Assembly (NCBI GenBank): GCA_965240365.1
Contig: OZ251218.1
Location: 3,022,378-3,086,377 of the forward strand
Direction of reading: 5' to 3'
Source: Gammaproteobacteria bacterium
GTDB lineage: Bacteria; Pseudomonadota; Gammaproteobacteria; Eutrophobiales; Eutrophobiaceae
Length of the DNA: 64,000 nucleotides
Positions 10,898 to 23,608 of this stretch are shown in pieces. Each line of letters begins with the position of its first letter. Position 1 is the first letter of the stretch. The notes below the pieces were generated by a model. The model searched no databases and was not told where the DNA came from. It worked only from the letters and a program-made list of their open reading frames with translations. The translations under genes and the position numbers were made by a program.

Positions 10898-11170
10898 ATG
10901 AATATTGAATGGGATGAAAACAAACGCCGCTCTAATCTGCTCAAACACCGGGTAGACTTTGCAGATGCCGTGGGCGTGTTTTATGACGATAACGCCGTTA
11001 CGGTAGAAGACCCGGAACACTATCGAGAACAGCGGCTTATTACTCTGGGTATGGATTTCAAACTGCAATTGCTGGTGGTAGTCAATACACAAAGAGCCGG
11101 CGATACTATCCGCATAATTTCTGCCCGAAAAGCAAACCGCAAAGAACGCAAACAGTACGAAGGTGATTAA
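10898..11170 (+). CDS. brnT: BrnT-family ribonuclease toxin (DUF497)
   Basis: 90 aa, MNIEWDENKRRSNLLKHRVDFADA...; overlaps downstream antitoxin by 8 nt. Confidence 0.75.
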   Translation: MNIEWDENKRRSNLLKHRVDFADAVGVFYDDNAVTVEDPEHYREQRLITLGMDFKLQLLVVVNTQRAGDTIRIISARKANRKERKQYEGD

Positions 11171-11414
11171 CATGAAAGATAACTACGATTTCAGCGAAGG
11201 CAAGCGCGGCGCCGTAATCAAAACCGCCAAGCAACGTATCACGATTCGCTTGGATCCTGACATTATCCAGTGGTTCAAGGATAAGGTACGGGGAGGCGGC
11301 AACTACCAGTCTTTAGTGAATGAAGCCCTGCGCCAGCATGTTGAACGGCAGGGAGAACCGTTAGAAGATACCTTGCGCCGCGTCATTCGTGAAGAAATAC
11401 AGGCGACGGGATAA
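11163..11414 (+). CDS. brnA: BrnA-family antitoxin
   Basis: 83 aa, FSEGKRGAV...ITIRLDPDIIQWFK... typical BrnA. Confidence 0.7.
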   Translation: MINMKDNYDFSEGKRGAVIKTAKQRITIRLDPDIIQWFKDKVRGGGNYQSLVNEALRQHVERQGEPLEDTLRRVIREEIQATG

Positions 11415-12506: not shown

Positions 12507-13289
12507 TTAAGACAAAAAAATCGGGTCACCTGTTTTGACGCGACCCTCCTGCAACACCGCGGCAAACACGCCGGCATCGCCACCGTGCTTGCGGCTGATG
12601 TGCCGCAATACTTTTGGCGATTCTTCCGCGGTGTCGGGGTCAAGCGTAATCATTTTGCAGCGCGGGTCCCGCTCGATAACTGCCACTTCCAGCCTTTCGC
12701 CAATCTTCAGCGTCTTCCCAATCAGTGAAAATTCATAATAGGGATCATCCTGGTTTTCCCATTCCACGTAAAAGTTGGCGCGAAAGCGGCGTTTGTCGAT
12801 GGGCATACCGATTTCTTCCGATAGCGCCTCGGCCGCCGAAGTGGAGAAAATCGACAGCGGCCGGCAATCATGCTGGCCTTTTTGCGTGACATGCACGCGC
12901 AGCTTTCTGCCGGCGGCAGCTTCCAGATCAGCCAGAAACGCGGGATCCTCTATATCGTTGCGGGTTCCATCCGGGGTTTCAACACTCACGCGAAACGCCT
13001 CGGCGTCCGGGTAAACGGGGTTGATGCCGGGGGCAAGTCCCTCGGCGGCGTCCAGGTCTGGCGGTAAAAGCACATCCTGACTCGATTCAAAACTCGCCTT
13101 ATAAAGCACAAACTCCTCCTGATCACGACCCGTATGCCAGGGGAAAGCCGGATCGCCGTCTTCCGCGATCACGCCATAGATACGATCACCCATCAACCCG
13201 CTGTAGGCGGCGTAAACATGGGGGATATGCTCGCCGCGCATACCTTTCACCGGGTAGCGCCAGATACTTTCGATGTTTCCAAGTTTCAT
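12507..13289 (-). CDS. MOSC domain protein (YcbX-like, lacking the ferredoxin domain)
   Basis: MOSC_N beta-barrel + MOSC domain, 260 aa; N-terminus MKLGNIESIWRYPVKGMRGE. Confidence 0.8.
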   Translation of the reverse strand: MKLGNIESIWRYPVKGMRGEHIPHVYAAYSGLMGDRIYGVIAEDGDPAFPWHTGRDQEEFVLYKASFESSQDVLLPPDLDAAEGLAPGINPVYPDAEAFRVSVETPDGTRNDIEDPAFLADLEAAAGRKLRVHVTQKGQHDCRPLSIFSTSAAEALSEEIGMPIDKRRFRANFYVEWENQDDPYYEFSLIGKTLKIGERLEVAVIERDPRCKMITLDPDTAEESPKVLRHISRKHGGDAGVFAAVLQEGRVKTGDPIFLS

Positions 13290-13961
13290 CTCCTGCCTCC
13301 TGTGGTTTGTATTGAGCCGCTATCTGTTTGATCGATAAGCAGGCCTGATTAAGAGACGTTCATAATACGCCTTTTGATTGGAAAGTATAGGCAGAATATT
13401 TGGCGCTTTATCGCTCTTAGACAGAGCGACACCGTCTTTCTGGCGCGGAATCTTCTCGAATCTATCAGGAAGAACAATGCCTGCCAATGCGACAGCTTTG
13501 TTAAATCATTTCTGATAGTGGTGCCGACAGAAAATTATTGTAAGCTGATGATTATCGACTGCATAAACAAGGATGCGAATCAGCCGTTGTTCCTGAAGGG
13601 TCACAAAAATCTGCTCCAGAATGCCCTTATTCGCCCACCAACGAAGACAGTATGTAAATAGTATACCAGTTGCCATATTCTTTCGGTAGATGCCGCCACT
13701 TACAGTCGTTTTCGGCCATATAAAAAAAAGGCATTTAATAACTGCTAGTTATTTATCTTGACGTTACCCCGTTGTGCCGGTAAAAGCCTCGATAGTTGTG
13801 CATATTGAGTATCTGTTAATTTCATATAAACAGGATAGCACATTATCTTTTTTAGCGTAAACAGGCGGTAGCTTCACTTCAAAATTCGATATCCCGAGCT
13901 TGTCTCCCAATTACAAATTTCCTTATATGCTGCCGTTTCTCGAAAAAACTCAAATTCATAT

Positions 13962-15536
13962 GCTAGGAGTCTGTCGGCTTTAACACCTCAATCACCAGCC
14001 GATGGGCCTCCATCAAATGCTGTCTCCAGAGAAACGGAGCCGTCAGCATCCCAAACCCAACTGAATCAAGGCATTTTCTCAAGAGAAATGGCTTCTTCCG
14101 CACATTCAGCCTCACAGGACGTGTAATCGCTTCAGATTCCAGGCCAGACACACCAGAGTCCATTCCCCGCTGGCCGCCTCCTGTCCGCGAAGATGAAATT
14201 GCCGGAATCCCAGGACCGACTTGATAATCCCAAACACCGTCTCCACTGTGGATTTGCGCTTGGCGTAGATCGCTTTACCTTCCGGGGTGCGTAATCGATG
14301 CGCCATCGCCATGACCGCGTCCGCGTCTTCCGGGCACGGTGGAGGCACGGCGAAGCGCTCATCCCAGGGCAGGTTATGCGACTCACGGCTCACAGCAATA
14401 TAGGGCGTGGCGCCAGCGGCTTCACAGTCCTTCACGTTGTCTTCACTAAAATAGCCCGCGTCCGCCAAGACCCCATCGACCGTGCCCAGACGGTCCGCCA
14501 TCGCCTCCAGGGCCTTAAGAGCCGGCTCGATTTCCTGTTTATCGTTCGGGTTCTGCGTCATGTGGTTTTCGACAATCAGATGGGTCTCGACATCCACCGC
14601 CGCCTGGGCATTGTACGCCTGCACAAACCCCTGCGAGGTAGGCATGATGCGCGATTCCTTGTCAGTGAAGTTCACCTGATCCTTAGCGCGCGGCCCCGGT
14701 TGTGGCGCTTTGGGGGGCTTGCCTGGGGTCTTGCGACCCGTTTTCGCTTCCTTGTCCTCACGCTTTTTTAGCTTCGCCTCATAGTCGGCCTGTTCCGCCT
14801 CAAAGCGCTCCTGCGCGCGACGCGCGATCTGTGCTTTGGCCTTCTGGATCGCCGCCAACCGCGCTTCCCGACGCGCCAACTCCTCCGGTATCTCCATACC
14901 GGCATCGTCCTCCGTATCGTCCGCCTGTTGTGCGCGCTTCATCAGTTCCTCGACCTCGCCCTTCAACTGCGCTTCCAGCTTGTTCGCATGCGCCCAACTC
15001 ACCGCCTTGTGCTTGCTCGCGTTGGCTTTGACCTTGGTGCCGTCCAGACTCACGTTGCCCAGCTTGAACAGACCGGCTGTCTTGGCCAGCACCAAAAGCT
15101 GCACGAACAGCCCTTGTAACTCACCCAGAAAGCGTTTGCGAAACGTGGCAATGGTGTCGTGGTCGGGATGGCTGTCCCCAGTGATAAACCGAAACGCCAA
15201 CGAATCGTACGTGGCCTGCTCCAGCTTACGGCTGGAAAACACCCCGGTGGCATAGCCATAAAACAGCAGCGCCAGCAGTACAGCCGGGTGGTAGGGGGGC
15301 TTGCCCACACCGCGGTAAGCACTCTCCAGAACCCTCAGGTCCAGTTGGTCCACCATCTCGACTACAAAACGGGCCAGATGCTTCTGCGGCAACCAGTCCT
15401 GTAAGGAGGGCGGTAACAGATAGGCCGTGTCACGATTGATCGTTCGAAATTTGCCTGACATTGGCTGCTTGATTCTCTATAGTGGAAAACATGACAGTTT
15501 ACCTGATAGAACGCCTAAATCCGACAGACTCCTAGT
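13962..15536 (-). mobile_element. IS5/IS1182-family insertion sequence
   Basis: 15-bp terminal inverted repeats CTAGGAGTCTGTCGG (13962) / CCGACAGACTCCTAG (15522) enclosing one 449-aa transposase. Confidence 0.65.
14112..15461 (-). CDS. IS1182-type (IS5 family) transposase
   Basis: 449 aa; InsH-like N-terminus (LLPPSLQDWLPQKHLARFVVEMVDQLDL), coiled-coil middle, DDE C-terminus. Confidence 0.85.
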   Translation of the reverse strand: MSGKFRTINRDTAYLLPPSLQDWLPQKHLARFVVEMVDQLDLRVLESAYRGVGKPPYHPAVLLALLFYGYATGVFSSRKLEQATYDSLAFRFITGDSHPDHDTIATFRKRFLGELQGLFVQLLVLAKTAGLFKLGNVSLDGTKVKANASKHKAVSWAHANKLEAQLKGEVEELMKRAQQADDTEDDAGMEIPEELARREARLAAIQKAKAQIARRAQERFEAEQADYEAKLKKREDKEAKTGRKTPGKPPKAPQPGPRAKDQVNFTDKESRIMPTSQGFVQAYNAQAAVDVETHLIVENHMTQNPNDKQEIEPALKALEAMADRLGTVDGVLADAGYFSEDNVKDCEAAGATPYIAVSRESHNLPWDERFAVPPPCPEDADAVMAMAHRLRTPEGKAIYAKRKSTVETVFGIIKSVLGFRQFHLRGQEAASGEWTLVCLAWNLKRLHVL

Positions 15537-15544
15537 GCAGTGTA

Positions 15545-16642
15545 TTAAACTGATTGTTGATTTGCAAGTGTCGTCCTTGCCCGATTCACTTTTTCTAAAA
15601 TGACCTCAGCGGATTTTGTCCAAACAAACGGCTTTGACGACCGATTATGCCGGGCAATAAAATCATGGATGGCGGCTTCCAAATCTTTTACCGACGTAAA
15701 CACACCGCGCTTTAATTGTTTTTCTGTCAACAGACCAAAAAATCGTTCAACTAAATTCAGCCACGAGGAACTGGTGGGAATAAAGTGCAGATGAATTCGC
15801 TTGTTCTTCTTCAGCCACTTTTTTACATTTTCATGCTTATGTGTCGCGTAATTGTCGACGATCAAATGCAACTCCTGATCCGCCAGTGTCTGCTTATTGA
15901 CCTCTTTTATAAAAGATAGAAACTCTTCGTTCCTGTGCTTCTTATGGCATTGCCCAATGACTTCCCCTGTTAAGGTGTTCAGCGCGGCAAACAGGGTGCT
16001 TGTGCCATGGCGCTTGTAATCGTGTGTCATTGTTCCACACCGACCCCGCTTCATCGGCAGACCAGGCTGTGTCCTATCCAGTGCTTGAATAGCGCTCTTT
16101 TCGTCCACACAAAACACGACAGCATTTTCTGGCGGTGACAGATAAAGACCAACAACATCACGCAGCTTTTCTTCAAAGCGCGGGTCATTGCTGACTTTAT
16201 AATTCACCGTCAAATGAGGCTTTAAACCCACTTCACGCCACACTCGGTTCACAAAAGAATGGTTGACACTCAGCTTGCGAGCTAAACGTCGTGTCGACCA
16301 GTGGGTAGCCCCTTCTGGTTTTTCCTGTGTCGTGATTCGGATGATCTTAGAGCGAAGCTCGGCTTGTTCGTTACTATTTTTACCACCGTGGTTTGCACCA
16401 CGAGGCAAATCCTTTTCAATGCCTGGAAAACCCTTCTCCACAAAACGGTTTCGCCAACGGCCCACTTTATTGACATCAATGCCCAGCTCTTCTGCAATTT
16501 TGTAGTTGGGCTTTCCTTGCGACGCCAACAAAACGATCTTCGAACGCTCAACCAAACGGGTTGGCGTTGTTCTACTGCGAATGTTTTTTGTTAGGCGTTT
16601 TTGATCTTCTTCTGATAGAATAACTTTTACTTGAGCAGGCAT
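15545..16642 (-). CDS. IS630-family transposase (second, unrelated copy)
   Basis: 365 aa; HTH + DDE (VFCVDEKSAIQALDR...IVDNYATHKHE...SSSWLNLVERFF). Confidence 0.85.
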   Translation of the reverse strand: MPAQVKVILSEEDQKRLTKNIRSRTTPTRLVERSKIVLLASQGKPNYKIAEELGIDVNKVGRWRNRFVEKGFPGIEKDLPRGANHGGKNSNEQAELRSKIIRITTQEKPEGATHWSTRRLARKLSVNHSFVNRVWREVGLKPHLTVNYKVSNDPRFEEKLRDVVGLYLSPPENAVVFCVDEKSAIQALDRTQPGLPMKRGRCGTMTHDYKRHGTSTLFAALNTLTGEVIGQCHKKHRNEEFLSFIKEVNKQTLADQELHLIVDNYATHKHENVKKWLKKNKRIHLHFIPTSSSWLNLVERFFGLLTEKQLKRGVFTSVKDLEAAIHDFIARHNRSSKPFVWTKSAEVILEKVNRARTTLANQQSV

Positions 16643-16674
16643 CGGGCTTCATCATCCTGGTGTGTGAAGCCTCA

Positions 16675-17484
16675 TTATATATCATCAATCAATTTAATAC
16701 AATATACTAGACGCAGGACTCGCTCAAGAGTCTCTGCCCCTTTTGGATTGTTGAACTTATTGGTATTACCTAACTCTCGTTGCAACGCTCGGCCAAGGAT
16801 CCTTACGCAATCGTGGCCACAGCAAAGCGATTTTTTCTCTTCGATCCGATCAAGTTCTATTTTGATCAATTTTAAAATATTAACCTCTGTTTCTTTTGGT
16901 CGCTTCTGAGACCGACTAACAACATGCTGAACGGTTCTAAGCTTGTCCAATTTAAACGAGCTTTGATGATTGAAACGATAAGTCATCCCGCTAAACTTTA
17001 AGTACCAAGAATCTCTTTTCGAGAGATAGCGGAATGCTCCACAGAAAGATGCTGCTTCAAAGATCAGATCACAGACATCTTTGCCCGAAGCCTCTACTGC
17101 ATTCACGCGATCTTTAACTCCAAATTCGCGCAAGACGTTCTCAAGTGCGGGGGAGCATAATATCATTATTTCGATGTCGTTCTCATCTGAGTAAACTACC
17201 GAGCCCTTGTGTGCAGGATATCCAATCAAGTCAGAAAAATCCTTGTCAGCAAGACCCAATGCTCCACGAAATCCCGAATTCTCCAGAATGGTAATTGCTT
17301 CAATAAGGTTCTTACGCCCAATACAGACGATGATTGAGCATCGATCGGCATCGCAGAATTTACGAAATAGATTCGCGTCACTACTGCCTTCTACGAGCAA
17401 GAAGCTACCATCATGCAACGCTCCTTCAAGACGAATTTGGTTAGCCAATGTTGCTCCACTTATCTCAGCGCGGATACTGCTCAT
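16675..17484 (-). CDS. AriB-like DUF4435/TOPRIM nuclease (PARIS-like effector)
   Basis: 269 aa; TOPRIM catalytic layout: conserved Glu (LLVEGSSD) then DxD (GLADKDFSD); 7-nt gap after ATPase gene; low GC (~42%). Confidence 0.6.
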   Translation of the reverse strand: MSSIRAEISGATLANQIRLEGALHDGSFLLVEGSSDANLFRKFCDADRCSIIVCIGRKNLIEAITILENSGFRGALGLADKDFSDLIGYPAHKGSVVYSDENDIEIMILCSPALENVLREFGVKDRVNAVEASGKDVCDLIFEAASFCGAFRYLSKRDSWYLKFSGMTYRFNHQSSFKLDKLRTVQHVVSRSQKRPKETEVNILKLIKIELDRIEEKKSLCCGHDCVRILGRALQRELGNTNKFNNPKGAETLERVLRLVYCIKLIDDI

Positions 17485-17491
17485 GACTTGA

Positions 17492-18865
17492 CTATACCAC
17501 CAGCTCTTGGACCAAATCCCATCTGTCGTGGATAATTTGAGGAGAATGGGTCGCGATAATCACCTTCATTTTCTTAATCTCTTGAATCTTTTGCAGATCA
17601 GAGATGAAATTTTTTTGCCACGCAACATGCAATGACAGCTCTGGCTCATCTACGAGAATCAAAGAATACTCTTCTACTTTGAAGAGTAAGTCGTAGATGA
17701 GCACAAGTTCATGTTGCTCGCCCGATGAAAGATCCGAGAGCGGAATTCCAGCGCCCGTGTTACTGTCTTCAGCTCTGATACCTCTTTTGGGATCAATCGC
17801 AATCTTCTTGAAAGAAAAATGCTCATCCAGAATTTGCTTGAAGAGCCTGATCTTGGCATAGGCTTCATCGAAGATGCCGAGCTTCTTTTCGGTATCTTCG
17901 ACATATATTGCAAGAATTCTTCGGATGCTCTCTTCTTGAAAGATGTCTGAAGGTTGAATTGATTCGCTAATCGTTTGTCCTAGAAGTCCGACAGACACAA
18001 GATCATCTCGTTTTTGGGTCAATTCTTGAAGACTCTCACGAATTTCTGATTCGTCACTGACAGGTTCAGCACGAAATTCAATTATCCTTTTGGGAAAAGT
18101 CTGGTCGAGTTTTTGCGATTCGTTTGCATACTCCTGAAGCAGTCTGCCAATCCTCTCAGCAAGATCAGTTGCGTCTTTTTCCACAACAGGCGGTGGAGTA
18201 AAACGTGCATACCTTCTAGGGCGTCGGTTATCCTCCTGCTCCTCAAGATAAAGCAAACGTTACGTCTCAATCAGATGAGTATCGACAGACGCAATCGCGT
18301 CTTGAAGCCACTCCGGAAGTTTCAATGAATCAAGAAGTTTTTGAGGTAGTCGGTCAGCATATAGCTCGATGATCTGATCTGTTGCAAAGGTTCTACCTTG
18401 ATGGAAGTCATGCCAAAGATCAGGTCCGATCTGTTCTACCGGAAAGCGATGTTCAAAGTATCTCAAATCCGGCAACGAAAAATCTGCAGCAAGCAAATAT
18501 AGCTCTTTGTCAGCGCCAAAACCAGTTGCCTTAATCGACACAGCCCTTTTTTCTCTAATCTCCTCACTATCAATGAGACCACCTTCATCCTTAAGAATTG
18601 ATATTTGCTTTCCAGAAGATAGCTGAAACACGATTTTTTCAAAACTGATCTTCTGGAAGAAACCAAGTTTCCGATTAAAAAACGAGTCTATAATTCTGAG
18701 CAGAACCGTTTTGCCATAACCGTTTGGGGCAGTGATTATTGACACATATTCCTCTTCACCAAATCTCAATTTGTAGTTAAAACGCCGAAATAGGTTTCGA
18801 ACAGTAAGTGACAAGAGTTGCTCTGGTTTCTGGCCATTGATCATTTTGTTGCTCATTTCTCGCAC
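17492..18865 (-). pseudogene. AriA-like ABC/AAA_15-21 ATPase interrupted by in-frame TAA
   Basis: Walker A ITAPNGYGKT (N-half 18263..18865), ABC signature LSDLSSGEQ, Walker B LILVDEPELSLH, H-loop IIATHSP (C-half 17492..18256); both halves in one frame separated only by TAA at 18260..18262. Confidence 0.65.
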
Positions 18866-19098
18866 CGATTAGAGTTCTGATATAAAAGTTTGTCCACTGA
18901 ATGTCGGGAAATCAGCCTCACAGGCCCTAATGAAGGGCCGAAAAGGCTCAAATCGTGATTCTATATATCCAGTGGGTCCAATTCAAGGCTGAGTCTTCTC
19001 CAATGACAGATGAGTCTGAAGGGCTTCGGTGTCAGGGATCATGGGAGCACATCGTGATACTATAAACCCAAGCCCCTCAGACTCTTAAGCAAATCCAA

Positions 19099-19290
19099 GC
19101 CTGCGCGATCCGACGGCGTCTTCAGTTCGAACTCGCCGCTGGTGCTCTTTACCATCTTTTTGGGCTTGCCGCTAAGACGGTTGTCGACAACATTCACCGG
19201 TCATGTGCGAATCGAGTGCGCATTCCAGTATGGCTTCCGTCAACTATTTCACCAACGGCACCAGAACACCGTCCTTACCGGTGATCCCCT
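19099..19290 (-). pseudogene. IS256-family transposase N-terminal remnant
   Basis: Translation ...LVPLVK*LTEAILECALDSHMTGE... and ...KSTSGEFELKTPSDRAG matches the IS256 Tnp N-terminus (compare intact fragment at 21925). Confidence 0.35.
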
Positions 19291-19429
19291 ACCCTGATTG
19301 AATTTGTATCGAAATTCTCGCGATTTGTCAATCCTCCTTTCTTTAAGGATAAAAAAAATGGTCGCTTGCGGCCAAGTTTTTTATCAGAAACGGCATTAGT
19401 TCCCGATCGAGGCTTCCCCATCAAACGAT

Positions 19430-19639
19430 TCAGTTCCTGGCCTCCACCTCCGTGGCGTGCATGCCTTTTGGCCCTTGTTTGGCGTGGTAGGAAACGGGTT
19501 GGCCTTCGTTGAGGGTTTTAAAACCCTCGGATTTTATGGAGGAGTAATGCACGAAAATATCGGCGCCGCCCCCTTCCGGTTCGATAAATCCATAACCCTT
19601 GGCTTCGTTGAACCATTTTACAATACCATTACTCATCAC
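19430..19639 (-). CDS. cspA: Cold-shock protein (CspA family)
   Basis: [15 protein letters not shown]...DIFVHYSSI; 68-69 aa. Confidence 0.85.
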
Positions 19640-19669
19640 AAATATTCTCCTGATTTAATATCCATGCCA

Positions 19670-20149
19670 CTAAGGAATGGACAGTGTGCGGATGATGCGC
19701 CAGTCATCCTGTTGAATATGCACATACCATTTACCCGGCCCGAGCGCGGGCAGATTGCCCTGATAGATGTTTTTTCGGGTGTTGCGCAGTTTTACCTGCC
19801 GGTCCAGGCCCGCGCGGGTGGCATGCAGAAACGAAACGTCAATCTGCACGGGATGACTAAAATTGGCATTGGCGGACAGCCGGATTTTTACTTCTTCCAG
19901 CTTTGCATCGATCTCTATGTCCGCCGCCAGTTGATAGGCCTCGGCCTGCCTGTCTCTTTCCAGGGTGCGGTTGATCTTGAGGCCCTGCTTGTAATAGTCG
20001 CCCACCACCAGTCCGTCATAGGAACTGATCGCCAGGTAAAGCATGTGGACGCCGCCGATAATGGCGACCGCCGGGAAAAAAATCACCAGCCAGACATAAC
20101 GTTCCCGATACCAGGGCCTGGCGGGCCGGGACGGGTTTAAGGGCTTCAT
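19670..20149 (-). CDS. fixH: FixH/CcoH-family cbb3 oxidase maturation protein
   Basis: 159 aa, N-terminal TM, SSYDGLVVGDYYKQGLKINRTL motif; overlaps ccoG stop. Confidence 0.7.
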   Translation of the reverse strand: MKPLNPSRPARPWYRERYVWLVIFFPAVAIIGGVHMLYLAISSYDGLVVGDYYKQGLKINRTLERDRQAEAYQLAADIEIDAKLEEVKIRLSANANFSHPVQIDVSFLHATRAGLDRQVKLRNTRKNIYQGNLPALGPGKWYVHIQQDDWRIIRTLSIP

Positions 20150-21609: not shown

Positions 21610-21921
21610 ATGACGCTATTGAGTGTCGAACCGTCCGAAGGGTTGATCAGCCCAAGGGTCTCGTTCGCGGCCGGGGGCACCCATGCCCCGCCGATCATGC
21701 ATGTGCCGGGATCGATCCCAGCGGTGTATTCTCCGCGCTTGACACAAAACATTGCGCTCGCCATGGTCTCGTGCGATTGTGCAGAGATCGGCACATCCCT
21801 TGAGGTGGTAATGCCCACGGGTTCAGTGCAGGCGACAGTCGTCGAGAAACCGTTCTATGATCCAAAAAGGTACTGTTCAGAATTCTGTGTCATTTCTTTA
21901 GACTACTGTATCAGGAGGTGA
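21610..21921 (+). pseudogene. C-terminal remnant of an aminomethyltransferase (GcvT-family) gene
   Basis: ...IALAMV...GTSLEVVMPTGSVQATVVEKPFYDPKR matches GcvT C-terminal barrel; N-terminal ~260 codons absent (ccoG occupies the position on the other strand). Confidence 0.45.
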
Positions 21922-21924
21922 TAT

Positions 21925-22341
21925 ATGAAAGACAAACTTGATTTTGATCTGGAAGCGGCCCTACAAGGGCTGCGTGAAGGCAGAAGACTGAGCGGCAAAG
22001 ACGGCCTGTTAACGCCGCTCATCAAGCAGCTTACCGAAGCGGCCATGCAGGCTGAGCTGGATTCGCATCTGGCTGAAGACGATGGCCCCAATCGCAGGAA
22101 CGGGCATTCCACGAAGACGATGAAAAGCCCCGCCGGGGAGTTCGCCTTAAACACGCCCCATGATCGCGCCGGCTCCTTTGAGCCGCAACGGGTCAAAAAG
22201 TATCAAACTCATCTGACCGATGAGCTCGAACGCAAGGTGCTGGGGTTATTTGCGCTAGGGAACAGCTATCAGGACATCCGGGCCCACATCGCCGAGCTGT
22301 ATGATATCAACCTGTCCAATGGTCAGGGGAATCGCACTTAA
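21925..22341 (+). pseudogene. IS256-family transposase, N-terminal 138 aa only
   Basis: LLTPLIKQLTEAAMQAELDSHL...STKTMKSPAGEFALNTPHDRAGSFEPQRVKKYQT...; strong SD AGGAGGTGATATATG; truncated by ISAs1-like element. Confidence 0.65.
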
Positions 22342-22388
22342 ATTTTGATTTTTGGTATAAGCTTGTTTCTTGACCATTCCTCATATAT

Positions 22389-23369
22389 TTGGGCTTCAAG
22401 ATGACAAGTTTAACCAGTTATTTCAATGATATAGATGATCCTCGTTCTGGCAACGCGCCGCGCCACAAGTTTTGCGATCTGATGACAATCCGTCTTTTGT
22501 GCGCCCTGTGTGGTGGGGAGACGGCGGTCGATATGGAAAATTTCGGCAATATGAAGGAGGATTTCTTACGGGAATTTCTCGAATTGCCCCATGGCGTACC
22601 TTGCCATGATGCGTATTCACAATTGTTCAGGTTGATGAAACCGGCGAGCTTCCAGACGTTTTTCGACAAGTTTCGCGCCGACTTCGCCGCCGGGCGTGGA
22701 GAGGAAGCAGCTATCGCGATTGACGGCAAAGAGATGCGGCGCCGCTTCGATAAGGCGATGGAACAGTCGAATCTAAACATGGTAACGGCCTTTGCGCATG
22801 GTGCGCGGCTGACCCTTGGGATCACTCAAAGCGCCAAGGGGGTGGTGAGATATTGGCCCCGCGTGAGTTGGTTGAGATGCTCGATATTCGTGGCATCACT
22901 ATCACCGCTGATGCGTTACATTGCCAGCGTGAGACCTGCGAATTGATCGTAGGGGAAGGGGGAGATTATTGCCTGCAACTCAAAGGCAACCAGGGCGATA
23001 TGCTGGCGGATGTACAGGCCTTTGTCAAAGATCAGAACATTGATTTCATTGATGAATATAAATCAACTGACGCGGATCATGGCCGTATCGAAGAGCGATC
23101 ATATCGCGTTTACGATGTCCCGAACTCTCTGGCCGAGAGGCACGATTGGCCGCACCTGCCTGCTGCAGGCAGGTCTGCAGGCCTTCGTTCAGGTCATCTC
23201 AAAACGTGAGGCAGGCGGCAAAACCAGCCACTCCGAGAGGCTGTATTTGATGTCAAAACGCCCCACAGCTCAACACGCCGCAACTCTAATCCGCGGCCAC
23301 TGGCAGATCGAAAACAGCTTGCACTGGTCGCTCGACGTTGTCATGGCCGATGACCATCACCGTGCCTGA
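22389..23369 (+). pseudogene. ISAs1-family transposase, frameshifted and hairpin-interrupted
   Basis: DIDDPRSGNAPRHKFCDLMTIRLLCALCGGE... (H-repeat/ISAs1 N-term) and ...HWQIENSLHWSLDVVMADD (C-term); frame change near 22850-22946 and 19-bp hairpin at 23155. Confidence 0.6.
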
Positions 23370-23608
23370 AAAGAGCACGCCCCAGCCAATTTCGCCGCCC
23401 TAAGACGCATCGCGCTCAGTATCATAAAGGCAAACACCGATAAGGGATCAAATCGGGGCAAATTCAAAAAGGCAGGATGGAGCAACAATTTCCTCAGAAA
23501 GCTCATAAATGGGTTTTGAAGTGCGATTGCCCTGGACAAATCGCTTGTTAGCGACATGACGCGCAGTTAAAACTTGATCTGGCTTTTCATTTATGTGAAT
23601 ATATTTTC

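What the first reader, a model, noticed from the sequence alone, without database searches (positions are those of the whole stretch)
16675..18865. PARIS-like AriA/AriB defence pair in a low-GC islet, ATPase split by a single in-frame TAA
This islet is a likely horizontally acquired defence module.
- Gene pair: a ~457-codon ABC-type ATPase (Walker A APNGYGKT, signature LSSGEQ, Walker B LILVDEPE, H-loop ATHSP) is followed after a 7-nt gap by a 269-aa protein with a TOPRIM Glu...DxD layout (VEGSSD...DKD). This matches the AriA-then-AriB order of PARIS anti-phage systems.
- Composition: the block is ~42% GC in a ~62% GC genome.
- Flanks: it is bracketed by an IS630 transposase on one side and an IS256 remnant on the other.
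- Disruption: the ATPase reading frame is continuous across 18257..18865 except for one TAA (18260..18262). The system is therefore either freshly inactivated, subject to read-through, or carries a sequencing error.
Basis: partly seen in the sequence, partly recalled or inferred. Interest (0 to 1): 0.75.

Follow-up and report, generated by a model that had tools for sequence, protein, structure and literature searches.

The report
Decayed PARIS anti-phage gene pair

Summary
The PARIS assignment holds.

The "269-aa AriB" is a truncated chimera.
- Homologues are 289-299 aa.
- Homology stops at Leu259, and the last 10 codons are read from the IS630 terminal repeat.
- The true last 29 codons lie 2.7 kb away (13963-13874).
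- In between sit an IS630-family and an IS1182-family element, both inserted at one CTAG.

The TAA replaces a Gln conserved in 13 of 14 homologues (ETQRLL), so it is CAA>TAA.

Six loci from closely related strains (97-99% identical flanks) lack ariAB. This bounds a 5,981-bp strain-specific islet (13399-19379; ariAB 42.7% GC, window 55.6%, not 62%).

Verdict: a recently decayed member of a known defence family. It is ordinary, of low interest and almost certainly non-functional.

The parts
13399..19379 (.). Strain-specific islet of 5,981 bp between the cold-shock gene (19430-19639) and the MOSC-domain gene (12507-13289).
   Evidence: Six loci from related strains (L005-L010) are 97-99% identical in the flanks. 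Homology breaks at about 19380 and at about 13398-13413. L005 holds 88 bp at this site. None of the six encodes AriA or AriB. No terminal repeat of 7 nt or more, no integrase and no nearby tRNA gene.
19099..19303 (-). IS256-family transposase remnant, covering only about residues 16-83, with in-frame stops and a frameshift.
   Evidence: tblastn with the IS256-type fragment from 21925-22338: 50-57% identity in two frames with stop codons. That fragment scores 63.5 bits against the NCBIfam IS256 model.
17492..18865 (-). ariA pseudogene, an ABC/SMC-type ATPase. The likely native start is the ATG at 18844, giving 450 codons.
18260..18262 (-). Premature TAA in ariA, replacing a conserved Gln (ETQRLL). 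It separates Walker A from the signature, Walker B and H-loop motifs.
   Evidence: The column is Q in 13 of 14 homologues and at least 90% conserved across 52. A single CAA>TAA transition explains it.
16708..17484 (-). ariB 5' part, codons 1-259, holding the TOPRIM/DUF4435 core with E32, D36, D80, D82, D103 and E105.
   Evidence: Pfam DUF4435 29.9 bits against a cut-off of 27. PADLOC AriB 7.7e-12. Alignment to homologues of 289-299 aa loses homology after LRL259.
15535..16707 (-). IS630-family insertion sequence of 1,173 bp (transposase 16642..15545). It is flanked by duplicated TA at 16708-16709 and 15533-15534, within a CTAG target.
   Evidence: NCBIfam IS630 265.6 bits against a cut-off of 100. 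30-nt terminal inverted repeats. Three other copies in a related strain share sequence exactly up to the flanking TA on both sides.
13967..15531 (-). IS1182-family insertion sequence of 1,565 bp (transposase 15461..14112). Terminal repeats are GAGTCTGTCGG...CCGACAGACTC, flanked by CTAG on both sides.
   Evidence: NCBIfam IS1182 378.9 bits against a cut-off of 270. Pfam DDE_Tnp_1, DUF772 and DDE_Tnp_1_6. Junction sequences. GC is 57.8%, like the host DNA.
13874..13963 (-). ariB 3' part, codons 260-288 (AYEFEFFRETAAYKEICNWETSSGYRILK) plus the TGA stop, displaced 2.74 kb from the rest of the gene.
   Evidence: tblastn with the C-terminal tails of 11 homologues hits 13966..13877, with E down to 6e-10. 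Sequence read. Joining the two parts at the CTAG restores a 288-aa ORF that aligns end to end with homologues.
13399..13873 (.). Low-GC tail of the islet (about 41%) downstream of ariB, with no recognisable gene.
   Evidence: Composition. The only ORF (13374..13661, 95 aa) has no significant Pfam hit. No Rfam family matched.

Best explanation
The locus is a relic of a PARIS-type abortive-infection system (ariA-ariB). It sits on a 6-kb strain-specific islet that entered a variable site between a cold-shock gene and a MOSC-domain gene.

**How the intact system works** (inferred from the E. coli B185 system)
- An AriA ATPase hexamer holds AriB monomers inactive.
- A phage protein binds AriA, and ATP hydrolysis releases AriB.
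- AriB dimerises, and its TOPRIM site cuts host tRNAs. Translation stops and the infection aborts.

**What this copy can do**
- Neither gene is intact, so it cannot do this.
- ariA carries CAA>TAA at a conserved Gln. The stop splits Walker A from the signature, Walker B and H-loop motifs.
- ariB is cut after codon 259 by an IS630-family and an IS1182-family element at the same CTAG. This removes two conserved C-terminal helices and adds 10 IS-encoded residues.

**Shown versus inferred**
- Shown: family membership, the three lesions, and the islet boundaries.
- Inferred: the biochemical mechanism, the loss of function, and that the decay is recent.
For: **Family**
- Repaired ariA scores AAA_15 74.1 bits and AAA_21 72.6 bits. 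ariB scores DUF4435 29.9 bits, above the cut-off of 27. These are the thresholds Rousset et al. 2022 used to detect PARIS.
- PADLOC's best hits are AriA and AriB.
- AriA is the best PDB sequence hit.
- Intact, adjacent ariA-ariB pairs occur in five other loci. Some sit beside CBASS genes, a KAP NTPase or an integrase.

**Lesions**
- TAA at the conserved Gln.
- ariB truncation, with its tail recovered at 13963-13874.
- IS ends confirmed against three other IS630 copies.

**Acquisition**
- Empty or differently filled site in six related loci.
- GC of 42.7% against 55.6%.

**Requirement for both genes and for AriB dimerisation**
-.
Against: - DUF4435 passes its threshold only narrowly. Sequence-only searches of the PDB with AriB or with its family profile do not find AriB. 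Membership of AriB therefore rests on the Pfam and PADLOC models plus the fold.
- Identity to E. coli AriB is only 12%, so the trigger and the RNA target may differ.
- The AriA fold test used a homologue, not the window protein.
- No reads were available. The TAA and the IS insertions are taken from the assembly as given.
- Loss of function of the truncated AriB is inferred, not measured.
Confidence: 0.9

Rival explanations
1. The system is still functional. On this reading the TAA is a sequencing error or is read through, and the 269-aa AriB works as encoded.
For: - Apart from the stop, ariA departs from columns conserved in at least 90% of homologues at only 2 of 123 positions, and ariB at 2 of 24. 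There are no frameshifts.
- The truncated ORF keeps the whole Pfam DUF4435 span (residues 28-243) and all the TOPRIM acidic residues.
Against: - ariB lacks its last 29 residues. These include the nearly invariant F266 and W278 and two helices modelled at pLDDT 97-98.
- In E. coli AriB, a residue near the C-terminus (E285 of about 306) lies in the dimer interface that defence requires.
- The IS630 end is identical to other copies of the element, so the ORF's last 10 codons are IS sequence.
- TAA is an efficient bacterial stop codon (general knowledge).
- The related contigs are named in the style of long-read metagenome assemblers, where substitution errors are rare (inference).
Confidence: 0.04
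2. The pair is not PARIS but another ABC-ATPase plus nuclease defence system, such as Septu (PtuAB), Gabija, an OLD-family nuclease or a retron effector.
For: - Many PADLOC PtuA models hit the C-terminal ATPase motifs, with E-values of 1e-22 to 1e-11.
- NCBIfam gives weak PtuA and retron-effector matches.
- PtuA and the retron ATPases are the next-best folds after AriA.
Against: - The PtuA hits cover only the shared signature, Walker B and H-loop region. NCBIfam PtuA scores 39 bits against a cut-off of 500.
- The partner gene is a DUF4435/TOPRIM protein, not an HNH nuclease (PtuB) or a helicase (GajB).
- ATPase and TOPRIM are separate proteins here, unlike in OLD or GajA.
Confidence: 0.04
3. 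The apparent double IS insertion or the TAA is an assembly artefact, for example a chimeric join through repeated IS copies.
For: - The IS630 element is multi-copy in this lineage. Repeats of this kind can mislead assemblers.
- No reads could be inspected.
Against: - Both ariB halves are present in the same orientation.
- The junctions are exactly what transposition into one CTAG predicts: C-TA[IS630]TA-G[IS1182]CTAG.
- A misjoin would not reproduce these target-site duplications or restore a perfect reading frame on excision.
Confidence: 0.02

Closest known systems
PARIS (AriA/AriB) of E. coli B185, on a P4-like satellite; structures 8ux9 and 8v45-8v49
   Same: - A two-gene ariA-then-ariB cassette.
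- AriA is of similar size (450 against 464 aa) with the same Walker A, signature, Walker B and H-loop layout, and is the best PDB sequence hit.
- The TOPRIM acidic set E...D, DxD, D/E is present.
- It lies on mobile, horizontally acquired DNA.
   Different: - Very divergent: 12% identity for AriB and 19% for AriA in the structural alignments.
- The host is an unnamed marine-type proteobacterial lineage, and the islet is not a P4/P2 hotspot.
- Trigger and tRNA target are unknown.
- This copy is a pseudogenised pair: a nonsense codon plus two IS insertions.
Class 1 and class 2 OLD-family nucleases, and Gabija GajA
   Different: - ATPase and TOPRIM are fused in one polypeptide in OLD and GajA, but are separate proteins here.
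- The fold scores are much lower than for AriA and AriB.
- There is no GajB-like helicase partner.
Septu PtuA and the retron-associated PtuA ATPases
   Different: - The partner is an HNH nuclease (PtuB) or a retron, not DUF4435/TOPRIM.
- The NCBIfam PtuA score (39 bits) is far below its cut-off of 500.

Membership tests
PARIS (AriA/AriB) | An ATPase matching Pfam AAA_15 (at least 32 bits) or AAA_21 (at least 27 bits). This is the detection rule of Rousset et al. 2022. | tested here: met
   With the stop read as Gln: AAA_15 74.1 bits and AAA_21 72.6 bits. As encoded, the N-terminal fragment scores 28.1 (below cut-off) and the C-terminal fragment 57.7 (AAA_21) and 49.3 (AAA_15).
PARIS (AriA/AriB) | A partner protein matching Pfam DUF4435 (at least 27 bits). 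| tested here: met
   29.9 bits for the truncated ORF and 29.6 bits for the repaired 288-aa protein, so the margin is narrow. PADLOC AriB E 7.7e-12.
PARIS (AriA/AriB) | Adjacent, co-oriented ariA-then-ariB cassette. | tested here: met
   A 7-nt gap in the window. The genes overlap or abut in L001-L004 and L012.
PARIS (AriA/AriB) | AriA fold: an SMC/Rad50-like head with helical insertions. | tested here: met
PARIS (AriA/AriB) | AriB fold: a TOPRIM core within DUF4435. | tested here: met
PARIS (AriA/AriB) | TOPRIM metal-binding acidic residues (E26, D30, D88, E90 and E122 in E. coli AriB). | tested here: met
   E32, D80 and D103 are invariant, and D36, D82 and E105 are at least 90% conserved, across 60 family members. 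All six are present in the window protein. The correspondence is by motif order, not by residue-level superposition.
PARIS (AriA/AriB) | Both genes intact. Deleting either one abolishes defence. | tested here: not met
   ariA carries TAA at 18260-18262. ariB is interrupted after codon 259 by IS630 and IS1182. The locus is a pseudogenised member of the family, not a working system.
PARIS (AriA/AriB) | AriA6:AriB3 complex, activation by an anti-restriction protein (Ocr, Ptr1/2), and tRNA cleavage by the AriB dimer. | not testable with these tools
   Known only for the E. coli system. This needs biochemistry on a repaired pair.
Septu (PtuA/PtuB) | A PtuA equivalog ATPase with an HNH nuclease partner, PtuB. 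| tested here: not met
   NCBIfam PtuA scores 39.4 bits against a cut-off of 500. The partner is DUF4435/TOPRIM.
OLD-family nucleases / Gabija GajA | ATPase and TOPRIM fused in one protein (GajA also has the helicase partner GajB). | tested here: not met
IS630 family | A DDE_3 transposase, terminal inverted repeats and a TA target duplication. | tested here: met
   NCBIfam 265.6 bits against a cut-off of 100. 30-nt inverted repeats. TA on both sides here and in three other copies.
IS1182 family | An IS1182-type DDE transposase with terminal inverted repeats. | tested here: met
   NCBIfam 378.9 bits against a cut-off of 270. 11-nt perfect terminal repeats flanked by CTAG.

The most novel reading that the evidence does not exclude
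The broken locus might not be inert. The N-terminal AriA fragment (Walker A) and a C-terminal fragment re-initiated at the TTG at 18256 could reassemble into a split ATPase. Together with the AriB-IS630 chimera, this could retain some defence or toxin-antitoxin activity.
Probability: 0.02. Interest if true: 0.5.

Novelty: new member of a known kind. Interest (0 to 1): 0.2.

Why it matters
- For annotation, both genes should be called pseudogenes. The public gene calls for this genome list a 254-aa and a 257-aa protein as if they were real, and model-based defence finders may still count the pair as a PARIS system.
- It is a clean small example of how defence cargo arrives at a variable chromosomal site and is quickly lost in an IS-rich lineage. 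Three independent hits have accumulated in otherwise well-preserved genes.
- The intact relatives form a PARIS clade very distant from the characterised E. coli system. They are the better candidates for experiments on alternative triggers or tRNA targets.

Tried and rejected
- **Sequence-only PDB searches with AriB.** The single protein found nothing. A 34-sequence family profile gave only weak TOPRIM-type hits (1t6t, RNase M5) and did not find AriB. The fold comparison was needed.
- **NCBIfam** has no model matching AriB.
- **Genome-collection scan with the AriB alignment.** It found only four loci and not the source genome. I ran no further search on taxonomy.
I used the closest intact homologue instead.
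- **How the islet inserted.** There are no direct or inverted repeats of 7 nt or more at its ends, no tRNA gene nearby, no integrase, and no significant Rfam family.
- **IS256 as the carrier of ariAB.** Another broken ariAB (L011) sits beside IS256-family transposases, but those transposases do not match the window remnant. I dropped the idea.
- **Order of the two IS insertions.** It cannot be resolved. Either order gives the observed C-TA[IS630]TA-G[IS1182]CTAG.

Full report

Mostly yes.
- On the minus strand the frame 18865..17492 reads through 458 codons with one internal stop. That stop is TAA at 18260-18262, in the context ACG TAA CGT.
- The next ORF starts 7 nt after the ariA stop and carries VEGSSD...DKD.
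- An IS630-family transposase (16642..15545) and a degenerate IS256-type remnant (19303..19099, with stops and a frameshift) are present.

Two details differ. ariAB is 42.7% GC, but the window is 55.6% (56.5% outside the islet), not about 62%. Alignment with homologues favours the ATG at 18844 as the start, giving 450 aa.

**2. What are the two proteins?**

*AriA.*
- With the stop read as Gln, the ATPase scores AAA_15 74.1 bits and AAA_21 72.6 bits.
- PADLOC's best model is AriA.
- The best solved-structure relative by sequence is AriA of the PARIS complex (8ux9/8v45, 464 aa, E 1.9e-13).
- The database holds many intact homologues of 445-455 aa at up to 66% identity.

*AriB.*
- The downstream protein passes DUF4435 narrowly (29.9 bits, cut-off 27) and PADLOC AriB (7.7e-12).
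- Sequence searches against the PDB did not reach AriB, even with a family profile. I therefore modelled the repaired protein (pLDDT 94.5).
- Foldseek finds only the two AriB chains at E<1e-3.
- The family's conserved acidic residues (E32, D36, D80, D82, D103, E105) match in order the E26/D30/D88/E90/E122 metal site described for E. coli AriB.

*Gene pair.* Intact ariA-ariB pairs, overlapping or abutting, occur in Arenicellales, Rariloculaceae and other proteobacterial MAGs. In those genomes they sit next to CBASS type III genes, a KAP NTPase or a P4-type integrase. The pair therefore meets the published operational definition of PARIS and the fold tests.

**3.
- Homologues are 289-299 aa. The window ORF is 269 aa and loses homology after ...LRL259.
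- tblastn with the C-terminal tails of 11 homologues finds the missing end at 13966..13877 on the same strand. It reads AYEFEFFRETAAYKEICNWETSSGYRILK, followed by TGA at 13876-13874.
- Two insertion sequences lie between the two halves:
  - an IS630-family element (16707..15535; NCBIfam 265.6 bits; 30-nt terminal repeats);
  - an IS1182-family element (15531..13967; 378.9 bits; terminal repeats GAGTCTGTCGG/CCGACAGACTC).
- On the minus strand the junctions read cgt-C-TA[IS630]TA-G[IS1182]CTAG-cat. This is the expected product of both elements hitting the same CTAG, in either order.
- Removing them restores CGT CTA GCA and a 288-aa ORF that aligns end to end with homologues.
- Three other copies of the same IS630 element in a related strain share sequence exactly up to the flanking TA on both sides. 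The last 10 codons of the "269-aa protein" (VYCIKLIDDI) are therefore transposon sequence.

**4. The ariA stop.**
- The TAA column is Gln in 13 of 14 aligned homologues (ETQRLL) and at least 90% conserved across 52. One C>T change (CAA>TAA) explains it.
- It follows a beta-strand in the homologue model. This is where ABC ATPases carry the Q-loop; that assignment is my inference.
- The stop separates Walker A (N-terminal fragment) from the signature, Walker B and H-loop motifs (C-terminal fragment).

**5. The islet and its origin.**
- Exact and near-exact look-ups of the flanking genes recovered six loci from closely related strains, 97-99% identical in the flanks.
- None of them encodes AriA or AriB. 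In the four that still carry the cold-shock gene, homology to the window breaks at about 19380. In all six it resumes at about 13398-13413.
- L005 has 88 bp there. L006 and L007 have a few hundred bp. L010 has a 9-kb sugar-transport and catabolism cluster at the same spot.
- So 13399-19379 (5,981 bp) is a strain-specific islet in a variable site between the cold-shock gene and the MOSC-domain gene.
- I found no terminal repeats, integrase or tRNA gene that would explain how it inserted.

**6. Mechanism and state.**

In E. coli B185 an AriA hexamer sequesters AriB. Ocr or other phage proteins bind AriA, and ATP-dependent release lets AriB dimerise and cleave tRNA-Lys, -Thr and -Asn, which arrests translation. 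Both genes and AriB dimerisation are required, and a residue near the AriB C-terminus (E285) lies in the dimer interface.

By homology I take this as the ancestral mode of action of the window pair. At 12% AriB identity, its trigger and target are unknown.

As encoded, the system should be dead.
- ariA is split at the conserved Gln.
- AriB lacks two conserved C-terminal helices, including the nearly invariant F266 and W278.

Otherwise the genes are well preserved. The window sequences depart from columns conserved in at least 90% of homologues at only 3 of 123 positions in AriA (one of them the stop) and 2 of 24 in AriB, and there are no frameshifts. The decay therefore looks recent.

Deep et al. 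describe AriB as a toxin neutralised by AriA. On that model, inactivating ariB first would make the later loss of ariA harmless. This ordering is inference only.

**7. Rivals.**
- Read-through or a sequencing error at the TAA cannot rescue the system, because ariB is independently interrupted.
- Septu, OLD, Gabija and retron-effector assignments fail on partner type, domain fusion, curated cut-offs and fold ranking.
- An assembly artefact is unlikely, given the exact target-site duplications.

**8. Verdict.**

This is a divergent but recognisable member of a known defence family, pseudogenised by three events, on a small horizontally acquired islet. It is useful for annotation and as an example of defence-gene turnover. 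It is not surprising, and I score interest at 0.2.

Noticed in passing
window 10898-11414 (+): A BrnT toxin / BrnA antitoxin pair (Pfam 98 and 49 bits) in a separate low-GC patch of about 41% GC. Unlike the PARIS islet, it is conserved in the related strains.
   Followed up: partly
window 21620-23400: A cluster of IS fragments: an IS256-family N-terminal fragment (21925-22341) followed by ISAs1-family fragments (22389-23369). In related strains (L005-L007) the ccoNOQP genes lie directly upstream of ccoG/fixG. Window homology to those strains stops at 21620, so the cbb3 oxidase genes have been displaced from this position.
   Followed up: partly
window 13290-19429 (csp-MOSC intergenic site); L005, L006, L007, L010: The same intergenic site holds different content in related strains: 88 bp, about 400-490 bp, or a 9-kb sugar ABC transporter and rhamnose-type catabolic cluster (L010 1189-9765). 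This suggests a recombination or insertion hotspot with no obvious integrase.
   Followed up: partly
L002 9525-11955; L004 3305-4702; L003 3797-4999: Intact relatives of this ariAB pair sit beside CBASS type III genes (SMODS cyclase, bacterial HORMA, AAA ATPase), a KAP-family NTPase and a P4-type integrase respectively. These are defence-island or mobile-element contexts.
   Followed up: partly
L013, L014, L015 (related strain, 1.5-Mb contig): At least three near-identical copies of the window's IS630-family element lie at different sites, each flanked by TA. The related strains look IS-rich, with IS110, IS200/IS605-type and DDE_Tnp_1 transposases nearby.
   Followed up: partly
L011 1-1978: Another broken ariAB copy, 64% identical in AriA, with apparent frameshifts in both genes. 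It sits next to two IS256-family transposases that are unrelated to the window's IS256 remnant. The frameshifts could be assembly errors.
   Followed up: partly
window 19352-19700 (-): A sub-threshold Rfam match to the cspA thermoregulator (40 bits, gathering score 78), overlapping the cold-shock gene and running about 30 nt into the islet. A terminator-like hairpin at 19359-19374 lies just inside the islet boundary.
   Followed up: no
window 18958-19088 (-): Two sigma-70-like promoter matches upstream of ariA (TTAAGA-18-TATAGT and TTGAAT-17-TAGAAT). These are consensus matches only.
   Followed up: no
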